From Pseudomonadota bacterium (GTDB taxonomy: Bacteria > Pseudomonadota > Alphaproteobacteria > UBA2136 > UBA6156), in assembly GCA_016125035.1 (NCBI GenBank), contig WGMN01000001.1, positions 258,427 to 322,426 on the forward strand: a DNA stretch of 64,000 nt. Reading direction: 5' to 3'. This document shows, in pieces, positions 56,380 through 58,476 of this stretch. Position 1 is the stretch's first letter. Every line of letters starts with the position of its first letter. The translations under genes were made by a program, and so were the position numbers. Under the pieces are notes generated by a model. The model saw nothing but the letters and a program-made list of their open reading frames with translations, was not told where the DNA came from and searched no databases.

Positions 56380-56667
56380 TTACAATTCGGAGGTGAAGAA
56401 GTCGCGGATTGATGCAAAAATGACAGTGACGATTTTGAGGACTGCCTTGGCTAACCACAGCAAAGCATGGCCTATGAAGCTCACAAATTTGGTGATGATA
56501 TTTATGATGAAAGAAAAGGCGGAGTTGACCAGGTCGCCCTTCTTCTTGCTGTCGCGCACCAGGCCCAGCATATAAAGGAGGAAAATGACCACGATGAGGA
56601 AGCCCAGGACGCGCAGTGAGGGCTCCAGGTAATCTACATAGATCTCGGCAAGTTGATTGATATCCAT
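56380..56667 (-). CDS. small two-helix membrane protein (95 aa), low-GC
   Basis: Two TM segments. Local GC is noticeably lower. Confidence 0.45.
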   Translation of the reverse strand: MDINQLAEIYVDYLEPSLRVLGFLIVVIFLLYMLGLVRDSKKKGDLVNSAFSFIINIITKFVSFIGHALLWLAKAVLKIVTVIFASIRDFFTSEL

Positions 56668-56670
56668 GGC

Positions 56671-58131
56671 TTAGGACTCCGTTGGGGCTTCGGGGGCGAA
56701 GTTGGGGGCGGGGCCGCCGCCGGTGGCGCTGAACATGTGGTACTTCTCGGCCACCGCCAGGCCTGCCTTGGGCGGCATGCGGAAACGCGGGAAGTCGATC
56801 TCGCCGGCGTCGCGCTTGAGTTTGACCAGCGGCACCTTGAGTTTGACCACGCCGGAGGGGCCGATGTAGATGCCCTCCCCCACCTTGAGGTTGCTGAAGT
56901 CTTCCGGGCGGGCGATGGCGTCGTACTCCACGCGGGTTTGCTTGCTGAAGCCACGGCCGCGGTTGCTGGTAAGCAACATGGATGCGTCTTGGTTGCCACT
57001 GGCGAAGCCTATGTTTTCGCTATAACTCTGGCTGGTGAACTCTTTGAGTTGCTGGCCGGCGATCTTGCTCATCTGCTCGCAGGATTCAGGGTCTTTGAGC
57101 ACGAAGCTGATTTTATTCCAGGTGTTACCGAGAATTTTGTAGGCGAAGTCCTGGCTGAGGCCCTTCTCCTTATCGGACAGCGAGGACACCGTTTGGATAA
57201 AGGGGAACAGGCAGACGTTGGCGGAGCGTGCCTGCTCGAACAGCGGGGCCAGGGTGGGCATGGCATAGCTGGAGAACTCATCCATCAGGCACAGGAAGGT
57301 GGGGGTGGGGCGTTGCTCCGGCGGGACGTTTTGCAGCTGACCGACCGCCGTGCGCAGGTCTGACAGGAAGATCTTGGCGAAGTCGGTGGCGACCTCTGCC
57401 TTGGAGAGCATGGGAAGGGCGACGTAGACCAGCAGGTTCTCTTTGATCGCCTGGAGCAGGTCGACCTCTGGGTTATAGGCATTGAGCACGTCGCGCGCGT
57501 TGCCGCGGGCGTAGGCCGCCAGTTTGCCCAGGAGGTCGCCAAACGAGTGCTGGAGCTTGCGCTCGGACACCTGCATGGCGCCGGTGCGGCGGTCGGGCTC
57601 GCACAGTTGGTCGAAAAACATTTTATAATCAAAGTACTCGCGCGAATCCTTGGGGCCTTCGCGCAGCAGGTAGCGCAGCGCGCCGTCGGACCCCATGAGC
57701 ACAGAGAGGTCGGTGAAGCTGAACGGCAGGCCCATGCGCTTGACCAGCCCGGAAATGGCGCCCAGGCCCTTACCGGCCTGCGAACGGAAGAAGGAATCGC
57801 CGCCGCTGCCGATGAGCAACATGATGCGGGTGGTGAGCTCTTCCGCGTCGCCGCGCAGCAGGGGGTTGTAGGTGTTGGAAAGGGCGGCATCGTCGATATT
57901 AATGATACGCACGTCTTGCCAGCGGTTGTGCTGGCGCGCGAGGGTGAGGAACTCGCGGATGGCGTCTTTGTTGTTTTTACCGTCGATGTGGATGACCCCG
58001 CCGCCGCGCATCATTTGCTGCTTGAGGATGAGGTTGAGGAAATTGGACTTACCGCCCCCGGTGGCGGCGATGCCCAGGCAGTGCCGCGAGAGCAGCTCGG
58101 ACGGCAAGAGGAGATCGAAACCAAGTGACAT
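56671..58131 (-). CDS. VirD4/TraD-family type IV coupling protein, ATPase domain only
   Basis: Walker A GIAATGGGKS and Walker B LCLMDEFSSY, with TrwB-like architecture but no N-terminal TM helices. Confidence 0.78.
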   Translation of the reverse strand: MSLGFDLLLPSELLSRHCLGIAATGGGKSNFLNLILKQQMMRGGGVIHIDGKNNKDAIREFLTLARQHNRWQDVRIINIDDAALSNTYNPLLRGDAEELTTRIMLLIGSGGDSFFRSQAGKGLGAISGLVKRMGLPFSFTDLSVLMGSDGALRYLLREGPKDSREYFDYKMFFDQLCEPDRRTGAMQVSERKLQHSFGDLLGKLAAYARGNARDVLNAYNPEVDLLQAIKENLLVYVALPMLSKAEVATDFAKIFLSDLRTAVGQLQNVPPEQRPTPTFLCLMDEFSSYAMPTLAPLFEQARSANVCLFPFIQTVSSLSDKEKGLSQDFAYKILGNTWNKISFVLKDPESCEQMSKIAGQQLKEFTSQSYSENIGFASGNQDASMLLTSNRGRGFSKQTRVEYDAIARPEDFSNLKVGEGIYIGPSGVVKLKVPLVKLKRDAGEIDFPRFRMPPKAGLAVAEKYHMFSATGGGPAPNFAPEAPTES

Positions 58132-58149
58132 GGGGTTGCGGGCCTTTGA

Positions 58150-58476
58150 TTAGCTGTTATCGAACAGGACGTTCTCGACCTTGCCCCAGTAGTATTCCTC
58201 GGGCACGCGGTTGGCTTGCAGGCGCCCCAGCGGCTGGCGCAGCTGCACGTACTGGCGCAGCGCCGCGCCGTAGACCACCAGGCCATAGAGAGCGCCGAAG
58301 AGAAATCCGAGCAGGGCGGTGTGGGTGTGGTCGAACCTGTCGGCCGTGGAAGGGTAGAAGACCCACAGCACCAGGACCAGGAAGCCCAGCGGCTTGAGGG
58401 CCCAGGCGAGGCGCGCACGGGCCAGACGCCCAATGCGCGGGCGCTGGATGTTGGCTTGGGGTGTGGTTTCTGCCAT
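58150..58476 (-). CDS. two-TM membrane protein, probable separated N-terminal membrane anchor of the coupling protein
   Basis: 108 aa with two TM helices. It ends 18 nt upstream of the coupling-protein ATPase start. Confidence 0.5.
   Translation of the reverse strand: MAETTPQANIQRPRIGRLARARLAWALKPLGFLVLVLWVFYPSTADRFDHTHTALLGFLFGALYGLVVYGAALRQYVQLRQPLGRLQANRVPEEYYWGKVENVLFDNS

What the first reader, a model, noticed from the sequence alone, without database searches (positions are those of the whole stretch)
56380..58476. Type IV coupling protein split into separate membrane-anchor and ATPase genes
The VirD4/TraD-like ORF at 56671-58131 has Walker A and B motifs but lacks the two N-terminal TM helices that define coupling proteins. 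A 108-aa two-TM protein is encoded immediately upstream at 58150-58476, separated by an 18-nt gap with an AAAGG-like RBS. A second two-TM 95-aa protein is encoded immediately downstream at 56380-56667. This is either a genuinely split coupling protein or a frameshift/pseudogene.
Basis: seen in the sequence. Interest (0 to 1): 0.6.

Follow-up and report, generated by a model that had tools for sequence, protein, structure and literature searches.

The report
Two-gene type IV coupling protein
The motor protein that feeds cargo into this bacterium's type IV secretion machine lacks its usual membrane anchor, and a small two-helix membrane protein encoded just upstream probably supplies it; 27 related uncultured genomes have the same layout, so it is a real design and not a broken gene.

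Summary
All three minus-strand ORFs are present as described: 108 aa (58150-58476), 486 aa (56671-58131) and 95 aa (56380-56667). The 486-aa protein is a complete cytoplasmic coupling-protein (T4CP) module. It has Walker A and B motifs, Pfam TraG-D_C and TrwB_AAD_bind domains, and an AlphaFold model that matches Cagβ, TrwBΔN70 and DotL. It has no transmembrane segment.

The alternative to a real split is therefore a nonsense mutation, not a frameshift. Comparison rules that out. In 27 related MAG loci (ATPase 41-91% identical) the ATPase is always short. It is always preceded by a homologous ~105-aa two-helix protein, in varying frames, with gaps of 3-39 nt (about 300 nt in one locus) or overlaps of 1-47 nt. 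All three ORFs are under purifying selection. More distant relatives (≤37% identity) are single 573-603-aa proteins with their own N-terminal hydrophobic domain.

The small protein has the size and N-in/C-in topology of that domain but no detectable sequence similarity to it, and no fused form was found. Its role as the anchor is inferred, not shown. This is a new Gram-negative variant of the known "TMD-less T4CP plus small membrane partner" arrangement (TraJ/TraI of pIP501).

The parts
58150..58476 (-). 108-aa inner-membrane protein, the candidate membrane anchor of the coupling protein. It has a basic N-terminus, helix 14-40, a short loop, helix 50-78, and a basic cytoplasmic tail carrying the conserved NRVPxEYYWG motif (N, R, P and G invariant or nearly so).
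   Evidence: ORF and translation. Family alignments of 26 loci and 26 database proteins. AlphaFold helical hairpin with a low-confidence tail. Positive-inside charge distribution, K+R 4.7 / 0.7 / 8.1. dN/dS 0.04-0.35. No Pfam or NCBIfam family.
58132..58149 (-). 18-nt spacer between the TAA stop of the 108-aa ORF (58150-58152) and the ATG of the ATPase. It contains AAAGG 11 nt upstream of the ATG. The two ORFs are in the same frame.
   Evidence: The junction differs in every orthologous locus: gaps of 3-39 nt (about 300 nt in L013) or overlaps of 1-47 nt, with relative frame 0, +1 or +2.
56671..58131 (-). 486-aa type IV coupling protein ATPase without a TM domain. It has Walker A at residue 22 and Walker B at residue 280, and it contains a nucleotide-binding domain plus an all-alpha domain.
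   Evidence: Pfam TraG-D_C (40.7 bits, cut-off 22) and TrwB_AAD_bind (23.2 bits, cut-off 20.5). NCBIfam TraD models match only from model position ~175 onward. PDB sequence hit to DotL residues 115-544, E = 1e-24. AlphaFold pLDDT 80.9, with Foldseek hits to Cagβ, TrwBΔN70 and DotL at E = 1e-12 to 1e-16. Maximum KD19 of 1.22.
56380..56667 (-). 95-aa membrane protein, conserved downstream partner. It has an acidic N-terminus, a very hydrophobic helix at about 19-37, a basic loop, a second hydrophobic stretch at about 47-86, and a conserved C-terminal (V/I)RDFFxSx(I/L) motif.
   Evidence: An ORF with the C-terminal motif was found by the ORF scan in 23 of the 26 related loci examined. dN/dS 0.03-0.29. 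No family hit. No significant match to small ORFs downstream of the fused plasmid T4CPs.
58596..59606 (-). TraF-like thioredoxin-fold protein (CPYC motif), the conserved upstream neighbour in the same operon-like block.
   Evidence: Pfam Thioredoxin_2 and TraF. Syntenic in almost all related loci.
20678..51349 (-). Context: the remainder of the type IV secretion and type IV pilus cluster that the coupling protein presumably serves. Components are TraC/VirB4 (20678-23278), TrbI/VirB10 (23787-25217), UvrD-like helicase (32295-34064), SLT (34074-34973), TraE (35697-36359), TraL-like (36470-36736), two VirB2 pilins (36743-37464), prepilin (40935-42014), T2SSF (45401-46486), T2SSE (46548-48464) and secretin (49124-51349).
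   Evidence: Pfam hits.

Best explanation
This is a naturally bipartite, possibly tripartite, type IV coupling protein.

The 486-aa gene encodes the whole cytoplasmic motor and receptor module of a VirD4/TraD/DotL-type T4CP, but no membrane domain. The 108-aa gene directly upstream encodes an N-in/C-in two-helix hairpin in the inner membrane. I infer that its conserved basic cytoplasmic tail (NRVPxEYYWG) docks onto the N-terminal face of the ATPase. This would do in trans what the N-terminal TM domain does in cis in ordinary T4CPs: hold the hexameric ATPase at the membrane next to the T4SS inner-membrane complex.

The two genes are co-transcribed and, in many relatives, translationally coupled, which would favour 1:1 assembly. 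The 95-aa downstream membrane protein is a third conserved member of the module. Its role is unknown; it could be a second anchor or a link to the channel.

The complex would serve the F-like T4SS encoded in the same ~43-kb chromosomal cluster.

Shown: gene structure, ATPase identity and fold, absence of a TM domain, topology of the small protein, conservation, purifying selection, and fused architecture in more distant relatives. Inferred: physical interaction, the anchoring role, and the substrate.
For: (1) The ATPase is a bona fide T4CP soluble module. It has no TM segment.

(2) In all 26 evaluable genome loci, plus the 41%-identical L032, the ATPase is short (439-484 aa). It is preceded by a homologue of the 108-aa protein and usually followed by a homologue of the 95-aa protein.

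(3) Junctions vary: relative frame 0 in 6 loci including this window, +2 in 19, +1 in 1. There are different stop codons, spacers of 3-39 nt (about 300 nt in L013) and overlaps of 1, 4, 25 and 47 nt. The separation is therefore old and maintained.

(4) dN/dS is 0.04-0.35 for the small protein, 0.008-0.11 for the ATPase and 0.03-0.29 for the downstream protein.

(5) In the protein database all ~78 clusters at ≥41% identity are 400-490 aa when complete. The next relatives, at ≤37% identity, are mostly 563-603 aa with an N-terminal two-segment hydrophobic domain of ~95 aa. Plasmid examples are annotated as single genes of 577 and 586 aa.

(6) 108 + 486 = 594 aa aligns colinearly, end to end, with the 576-aa fused form. 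The break falls in the linker between the TM domain and the nucleotide-binding domain.

(7) The small protein is a helical hairpin with positive-inside charges at both ends. Its C-terminus and the ATPase N-terminus are therefore on the same, cytoplasmic, side. Its conserved tail has low confidence when modelled alone, as expected for a segment that folds on a partner (inference).

(8) There is a precedent. Reviews recognise a subfamily of T4CPs lacking a TMD that pair with small membrane proteins, with TraJ/TraI of pIP501 as the example (PMC7434980, PMC12857230).
Against: There is no detectable sequence similarity between the small-protein family and the N-domains of the fused relatives (hhalign E = 0.44; low posterior in the N-terminal part of the global alignment).

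No Rosetta-stone fusion of the small-protein family to an ATPase exists among 1.84 billion representative proteins.

No interaction evidence of any kind could be obtained.

The 95-aa protein, or other T4SS inner-membrane proteins, could be the real tether. Some T4CP soluble domains also reach the membrane through contacts with the T4SS (PMC7434980).
Confidence: 0.6

Rival explanations
1. Pseudogene or sequencing error: a normal single-gene coupling protein in this genome has been interrupted by a recent nonsense mutation (TAA at 58150-58152) or by a base-calling error.
For: In this window the two ORFs are in the same frame and only one stop codon separates them. More distant relatives are single fused genes.
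Against: 27 other genomes, down to 41% ATPase identity, have the same two separate genes, mostly in different relative frames, with other stop codons, spacers and overlaps. Purifying selection acts on both parts. A second assembly has the identical sequence. The ATPase has its own ATG preceded by an AAAGG Shine-Dalgarno-like site. No fused protein contains the small-protein family.
Confidence: 0.02
2. Programmed stop-codon read-through makes a single fused 601-aa coupling protein from the two in-frame ORFs.
For: The two ORFs are in frame with a single TAA in this window and in 5 of the 25 other loci evaluated.
Against: In 20 of the 26 loci (window included) the two ORFs are in different frames or overlap. 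In those loci read-through cannot give a fusion. In-frame junctions in 6 of 26 loci is close to the one-third expected by chance. The stop codon and its context are not conserved (TAA, TGA, TAG). TAA is the least leaky stop codon in bacteria (general knowledge).
Confidence: 0.02
3. The 108-aa protein is a conserved T4SS or pilus-biogenesis component unrelated to the coupling protein, such as a VirB3/TraL-like, entry-exclusion or assembly factor. The TMD-less ATPase reaches the machine by other means: the 95-aa protein, VirB4/VirB10 contacts, or no stable anchoring at all.
For: There is no sequence similarity to T4CP N-domains and no fusion anywhere. Small two-TM proteins such as VirB3/TraL are common in T4SS operons. 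Soluble T4CP domains can contact T4SS proteins (PMC7434980).
Against: A separate TraL-like gene sits in the canonical place between the pilin genes and traE (36470-36736), and the 108-aa protein does not match TraL or VirB3 models. The gene is invariably immediately 5' of the ATPase, often overlapping its start codon. Its size, two-helix N-in/C-in topology and tail length match the missing domain, and the concatenate is colinear with fused relatives.
Confidence: 0.25
4. The 95-aa downstream protein, alone or together with the 108-aa protein, is the functional membrane partner. The complex would then be three-part, analogous to the multi-subunit DotL-DotM-DotN coupling complex of type IVB systems.
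For: The 95-aa gene starts 3 nt after the ATPase stop. It is conserved with a conserved C-terminal RDFFxSx(I/L) motif in most related loci and is under purifying selection. The ATPase's only sequence-level match in the PDB is DotL, which works in a multi-protein coupling complex (PMC3297438).
Against: tblastn with the window's 95-aa protein found no match in several loci (L014-L016, L022, L027, L029, L032). In most of these the ORF scan or gene calls nevertheless show a small ORF in that position, so the protein is weakly conserved rather than absent. It has no similarity to DotM or DotN or to any family. By the positive-inside rule its conserved C-terminus may face the periplasm, away from the ATPase.
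Confidence: 0.3

Closest known systems
TraJ / TraI pair of the Gram-positive plasmid pIP501 (the 'T4CP lacking TMD' subfamily in PMC7434980; also PMC12857230)
   Same: A coupling-protein ATPase without its own TM domain is encoded next to a small protein with two predicted TM helices. That small protein is proposed to anchor the ATPase to the cytoplasmic membrane.
   Different: pIP501 is a Gram-positive plasmid system. Here the system is a chromosomal, F-like T4SS in uncultured bacteria labelled Alpha-/Proteobacteria. I found no sequence relationship between the small proteins, though TraI itself was not compared; the 108-aa family matches no Pfam or NCBIfam model. Here the nearest relatives of the ATPase are ordinary fused Gram-negative T4CPs, so the split or replacement can be placed on a specific branch.
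Fused T4CPs of Pseudomonas, Variovorax and Burkholderiales megaplasmids (e.g. WP_083944475.1, WP_060515489.1; annotated 'type IV secretion system DNA-binding domain-containing protein', MPF_F)
   Same: These are the closest full-length homologues of the ATPase (30-37% identity over ~95% of its length). They also lie in F-like T4SS contexts. Their total length of 573-603 aa equals the sum of the 108-aa and 486-aa proteins.
   Different: They are a single polypeptide with a Gly/Ala-rich N-terminal hydrophobic domain. That domain shows no significant similarity to the 108-aa family.
DotL (IcmO) of Legionella pneumophila / TrbC of IncI plasmids (type IVB coupling proteins; PDB 6sz9, 7ovb)
   Same: DotL is the only solved structure found by sequence (E = 1e-24, DotL residues 115-544), and it is a structural match. 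It works with separate membrane and adaptor subunits (DotM, DotN).
   Different: DotL keeps its own N-terminal region before residue 115 and has a long C-terminal adaptor-binding extension (783 aa). The local T4SS genes (TraC_F_IV, TraE, TraL) are F-type, not Dot/Icm-type.
TraD of SXT/PFGI-1-type elements (NCBIfam TIGR03743, TIGR03754)
   Same: These are the best NCBIfam matches to the nucleotide-binding and TraG-D_C regions.
   Different: Scores are far below the family cut-offs (87 vs 366 bits; 56 vs 648 bits). The match begins at model position ~175, after the TraD TM domain.
TrwB of R388, crystallised as TrwBΔN70
   Same: The 486-aa protein corresponds structurally to TrwB with its TM domain removed (TM-score 0.65-0.67 normalised to TrwB).
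   Different: About 14% sequence identity. TrwBΔN70 is an engineered truncation that is inactive in conjugation (PMC7434980). Here the truncated form is the natural, conserved gene product.
TraG-TraJ pairs of IncH plasmids such as R27 (PMC7434980)
   Same: The coupling protein depends on a separately encoded membrane protein from the adjacent gene.
   Different: In those pairs TraG retains its own TM domain, and TraJ is ~200 aa with up to five TM helices.

Membership tests
Type IV coupling protein (VirD4/TraD/TraG/DotL superfamily) | P-loop nucleotide-binding domain with Walker A and Walker B motifs | tested here: met
   AATGGGKS at residue 22 and LCLMDE at residue 280. G25, G27, K28 and D284 are invariant in 18 homologues.
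Type IV coupling protein (VirD4/TraD/TraG/DotL superfamily) | Pfam TraG-D_C and TrwB_AAD_bind domains above gathering score | tested here: met
   PF12696 scores 40.7 bits (cut-off 22). PF10412 scores 23.2 bits (cut-off 20.5).
Type IV coupling protein (VirD4/TraD/TraG/DotL superfamily) | Fold of the T4CP cytoplasmic domain (RecA-like nucleotide-binding domain plus all-alpha domain) | tested here: met
   AlphaFold model with pLDDT 80.9. Foldseek top hits are Cagβ 8dol, TrwBΔN70 1e9s and DotL 6sz9, E = 1e-12 to 6.5e-16, ahead of HerA.
Type IV coupling protein (VirD4/TraD/TraG/DotL superfamily) | N-terminal transmembrane domain in the same polypeptide (typical, not universal) | tested here: not met
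   Maximum KD19 is 1.22 and Walker A starts at residue 22. There is an in-frame stop 18 nt upstream of the ATG.
Type IV coupling protein (VirD4/TraD/TraG/DotL superfamily) | Encoded with a type IV secretion system (VirB4-family ATPase and other components) | tested here: met
   TraC/VirB4, TrbI/VirB10, TraE, TraL-like, VirB2 pilins, SLT and TraF-like genes lie in the same cluster.
TraD equivalogs (NCBIfam TIGR03743 SXT_TraD, TIGR03754 conj_TOL_TraD) | Score above the curated cut-off | tested here: not met
   87.4 vs 366 bits and 55.8 vs 647.6 bits. It is a distant relative, not a member.
'T4CP lacking TMD' paired with a small membrane protein (TraJ/TraI pIP501 type) | ATPase without a TMD and an adjacent gene for a small protein with two TM helices | tested here: met
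   Conserved in 27 related loci.
'T4CP lacking TMD' paired with a small membrane protein (TraJ/TraI pIP501 type) | Physical interaction of the small protein with the ATPase and membrane recruitment | not testable with these tools
'T4CP lacking TMD' paired with a small membrane protein (TraJ/TraI pIP501 type) | Sequence homology to TraJ or TraI of pIP501 | not tested
The resemblance is architectural.
Detached N-terminal domain of a T4CP (homology of the 108-aa protein to T4CP TM domains) | Detectable sequence or profile similarity to N-domains of fused relatives, or existence of fused intermediates | tested here: not met
   hhalign E = 0.44. All 25 profile hits in 1.84 billion proteins are 72-143 aa.
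Detached N-terminal domain of a T4CP (homology of the 108-aa protein to T4CP TM domains) | Same size, two-helix N-in/C-in topology, and colinearity with fused relatives | tested here: met
Pseudogene (disrupted single-gene T4CP) | Lineage-specific disruption, relaxed selection, intact orthologues in close relatives | tested here: not met
   All relatives at ≥41% identity are split. dN/dS is well below 1 for both parts.
VirB3 / TraL (as an alternative identity of the 108-aa protein) | Match to PF05101 or PF07178, and position next to virB4/traC or between the pilin gene and traE | tested here: not met
   No such hit even at E ≤ 5. A different ORF (36470-36736) matches TraL and occupies the canonical place.

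The most novel reading that the evidence does not exclude
The split coupling protein may be one sign that this ~43-kb T4SS plus type IV pilus cluster is not a mobile element. It could be an ancient, vertically inherited organelle of a deep, uncultured alphaproteobacterial lineage, sitting next to yggT in every genome examined. In that case it would use a three-part membrane coupling complex (108-aa anchor, ATPase, 95-aa protein), with an anchor that was recruited de novo rather than derived from the ancestral T4CP TM domain. No recognisable relaxase is present, so its cargo could be proteins delivered to hosts or prey rather than DNA.
Probability: 0.25. Interest if true: 0.6.

Novelty: new variant of a known kind. 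Interest (0 to 1): 0.4.

Why it matters
The TM domain of coupling proteins is required for function in the model systems. It is thought to control hexamer formation, localisation and communication with the secretion channel, yet it is the least understood part of the protein (PMC7434980). A natural lineage in which membrane domain and motor are separate, conserved polypeptides offers a clean system for testing what the TM domain contributes. The nearest relatives are still fused, so engineered fusions and swaps have a direct natural comparison.

There is also a practical point for annotation. The three genes are currently labelled 'hypothetical protein' or bare domain names, and automated pipelines may flag the short ATPase as truncated.

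The finding does not change the general picture of type IV secretion.

Tried and rejected
- **Virtual fusion model.** I tried to fold the 108-aa protein joined to the ATPase. A first alignment (A4) was badly misaligned by MAFFT. No interface prediction was therefore possible.
- **Small protein vs fused N-domains.** Profile-profile comparison of the small-protein family with N-domains of fused relatives was not significant. The forced global alignment is colinear but has low confidence in that region.
- **95-aa family vs plasmid ORFs.** An HMM of the 95-aa family was searched against all ORFs around the fused plasmid T4CPs. The best hits were small hydrophobic ORFs downstream of the T4CP, but at E = 0.08 and 1.1, which is compositional and not evidence.
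- **Family libraries.** Pfam and NCBIfam scans, with Pfam repeated at lenient thresholds, gave nothing meaningful for the 108-aa, 95-aa, 315-aa, 255-aa, 122-aa and 398-aa neighbours.
- **Relaxase.** Scans of the large ORFs of the cluster found none recognisable.
- **Literature.** The Alvarez-Martinez & Christie 2009 review is not held. Keyword searches for a described split TraD/T4CP in Gram-negative systems found nothing specific. These searches were not exhaustive.
- **Frameshift.** Considered and rejected, because the ORFs are in frame.
- **VirB3/TraL identity for the small protein.** Considered and rejected.
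Full report
**Observation**

The three minus-strand ORFs are present exactly as described: 58150-58476 (108 aa), 56671-58131 (486 aa) and 56380-56667 (95 aa). The spacer between the first two is 18 nt and contains AAAGG 11 nt upstream of the ATG. The third ORF starts 3 nt after the ATPase stop.

One point changes the framing. Translating straight through shows that the 108-aa and 486-aa ORFs are in the same frame, separated by a single TAA and six sense codons (…FDNS*SKARNPMSLGF…). A frameshift is therefore not the alternative to test. An in-frame nonsense codon, whether mutation, sequencing error or read-through, is.

A second assembly (Logan, run SRR10063242) carries an identical sequence across 53671-61476. 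The window belongs to a MAG labelled 'Proteobacteria bacterium' (locus tags GC129_01625 and GC129_01635 for the two small proteins).

**The ATPase**

The 486-aa protein passes the Pfam gathering scores for TraG-D_C and TrwB_AAD_bind. It matches NCBIfam TraD models only from about model position 175 onward and far below their cut-offs.

Its only sequence-level relative with a solved structure is Legionella DotL (E = 1e-24), aligned to DotL residues 115-544. An AlphaFold model (mean pLDDT 80.9) finds Cagβ, TrwBΔN70 and DotL as its best structural matches, at E = 1e-12 to 6.5e-16 and ahead of HerA-type ATPases.

Walker A starts at residue 22 and Walker B at residue 280. The most hydrophobic 19-residue window scores 1.22, and it covers the segment (residues 225-243) that holds an internal β-strand of the model. 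The protein is thus a complete T4CP cytoplasmic module, the natural equivalent of TrwBΔN70, without a membrane domain.

**The two small proteins**

The 108-aa protein matches no family. AlphaFold predicts two long helices (14-40 and 50-78), a short connecting loop and a low-confidence tail.

Across the family, K+R counts are 4.7 before helix 1, 0.7 in the loop and 8.1 after helix 2. This indicates N-in/C-in topology, so its C-terminus is on the same side as the ATPase N-terminus. The tail carries the most conserved motif of the family, NRVPxEYYWG.

The 95-aa protein has an acidic N-terminus, a very hydrophobic helix, a basic loop, a second long hydrophobic stretch and a conserved C-terminal (V/I)RDFFxSx(I/L) motif.

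**Comparative evidence**

A database search with the ATPase returned about 78 clusters at 41-90% identity. All complete ones are 400-490 aa. They are followed by relatives at ≤37% identity that are mostly 563-603 aa.

The long forms are annotated as single genes of 577 and 586 aa in the F-type transfer regions of Variovorax and Pseudomonas megaplasmids. They carry an N-terminal domain of ~95 aa with two hydrophobic segments.

A scan of one genome per species found 27 loci in MAGs labelled Alphaproteobacteria or Proteobacteria, on contigs up to 1 Mb. One locus is cut at the contig end. In all 26 others the ATPase ORF is short and a homologue of the 108-aa protein lies immediately upstream. A homologue of the 95-aa protein was found downstream in 23 of them by the ORF scan.

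The junction differs from locus to locus:
- The relative frame is 0 in 6 loci (this window included), +2 in 19 and +1 in 1.
- The stop codons are TAA, TAG or TGA.
- Spacers are 3-39 nt, and about 300 nt in L013.
- Overlaps are 1, 4, 25 or 47 nt.

The most distant short-form relative (41% identity, L032) has the same arrangement, with a 4-nt overlap.

Pairwise dN/dS is 0.04-0.35 for the small protein, 0.008-0.11 for the ATPase and 0.03-0.29 for the downstream protein.

These data exclude a recent nonsense mutation, a sequencing error and programmed read-through. Three separate genes is the conserved, selected state.

**Is the small protein the detached N-domain?**

Positionally, yes. The concatenate (594 aa) aligns end to end with the 576-aa fused form, and the break falls in the linker between the hydrophobic domain and the nucleotide-binding domain. 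Size, helix number and topology also agree.

By sequence, no. The profile-profile comparison of the small family with the fused N-domains gives E = 0.44. A profile search of 1.84 billion representative proteins found 25 homologues, all 72-143 aa and none fused to anything.

It therefore cannot be decided whether the ancestral TM domain was split off and diverged beyond recognition, or was lost and replaced by an unrelated hairpin. T4CP TM domains are the most variable part of these proteins (PMC7434980), so lack of similarity is weak evidence against common origin.

An identity as VirB3/TraL is unlikely. The small protein does not match those models, and a TraL-like ORF occupies the canonical position between the pilin genes and traE.

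**Context**

The module is part of a ~43-kb minus-strand cluster with two sets of genes.
- F-type T4SS genes: TraC/VirB4, TrbI/VirB10, TraE, TraL-like, two VirB2-type pilins, an SLT transglycosylase and a TraF-like thioredoxin.
- An R64/PAPI-1-like type IV pilus set: secretin, T2SSE ATPase, T2SSF platform and prepilin.

A UvrD-like helicase is also present, but no relaxase was recognised. Housekeeping genes flank the cluster (dnaK/dnaJ/hrcA on one side, yggT and rph on the other).

The block yggT | 109 aa | 398 aa | TraF-like | small | ATPase | 95 aa | 315 aa | 255 aa | 122 aa | 460 aa is syntenic across the 28 loci. This includes yggT in almost all loci that extend far enough. That pattern suggests long vertical inheritance rather than a roaming element.

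**Mechanism (inferred)**

The 108-aa hairpin inserts in the inner membrane, and its basic, conserved cytoplasmic tail binds the ATPase. This would supply in trans the anchoring, and probably the hexamer-organising and channel-contact functions, of the usual N-terminal TM domain. Tight gene coupling would ensure stoichiometric production.

The 95-aa protein is a third conserved membrane subunit of unknown role.

**Comparison with known systems**

Reviews already recognise a T4CP subfamily lacking a TM domain that pairs with small membrane proteins. The example is TraJ with the two-TM protein TraI of the Gram-positive plasmid pIP501 (PMC7434980; PMC12857230). They also describe TraG-TraJ pairs in IncH plasmids.

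The present case shares the architecture but differs in several ways. It sits in a Gram-negative, chromosomal, F-like system. Its partner family has no match to any known family. Fused close relatives exist that locate the change on a specific branch.

My keyword searches found no description of such a split in Gram-negative F-like systems, but they were not exhaustive.

**Verdict**

The pseudogene/frameshift alternative is rejected. The anchor interpretation is plausible but unproven.

This is a new variant of a known kind and is moderately interesting.

Noticed in passing
window 52586-61586; loci L005-L032: The whole block yggT(-) | 109 aa | 398 aa | TraF-like | small | ATPase | 95 aa | 315 aa | 255 aa | 122 aa | 460 aa(-) is syntenic in 28 MAG loci down to 41% ATPase identity. 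yggT is the flank in nearly all loci. The T4SS therefore seems to sit at one fixed chromosomal place and looks vertically inherited rather than like a mobile ICE.
   Followed up: partly
window 54534-55301 (-): This 255-aa protein has no family match but is the best conserved unknown neighbour (53-91% identity across loci, more than either small membrane protein). It could be a coupling-protein adaptor or a relaxosome-like accessory.
   Followed up: no
window 36470-37464 (-): Two tandem VirB2/TrbC-type pilin ORFs (37111-37464 with Pfam TrbC at E = 1.7e-7; 36743-37090 with a similar sequence but no hit) are followed by a TraL-like 88-aa ORF and then TraE. This is the F-like order pilin-TraL-TraE with a duplicated pilin.
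   Followed up: partly
window 40935-51349 (-): A type IV pilus gene set lies inside the T4SS cluster: N-methyl prepilin-like 359-aa protein, T2SSF, T2SSE and a 741-aa secretin. This recalls the thin-pilus genes of IncI R64 and PAPI-1-type islands (the comparison is from general knowledge).
   Followed up: no
window 29371-34064 (-): A UvrD-like helicase (32295-34064) and a 726-aa protein with weak sigma-70, ParB and HTH hits (29371-31551) lie inside the cluster. No relaxase was recognisable with Pfam or NCBIfam, so whether the substrate is DNA or protein is open.
   Followed up: partly
L034:2162-5422: Another short T4CP (P0081, 473 aa, 36% identical, 23 member sequences) starts 4 nt after a 611-aa polytopic membrane protein and has no small hairpin gene. 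This seems to be a second, different way of having a TMD-less coupling protein next to a membrane partner.
   Followed up: partly
window 6931-9027 (-): This ORF matches PF10712 'NAD-specific glutamate dehydrogenase' at E = 5e-177. It lies antisense to a 637-aa plus-strand ORF (7054-8967) that, by its position between grpE-like and dnaJ genes, is probably dnaK (not scanned). From general knowledge PF10712 is a spurious family built from the reverse strand of dnaK, so this is probably not a real gene.
   Followed up: no
window 59625-60821 (-): A 398-aa Cys-rich secreted protein with no family match sits where TraU/TraN-type proteins lie in the related Variovorax plasmid operon. It is detectably conserved only in a subset of the related loci.
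   Followed up: no
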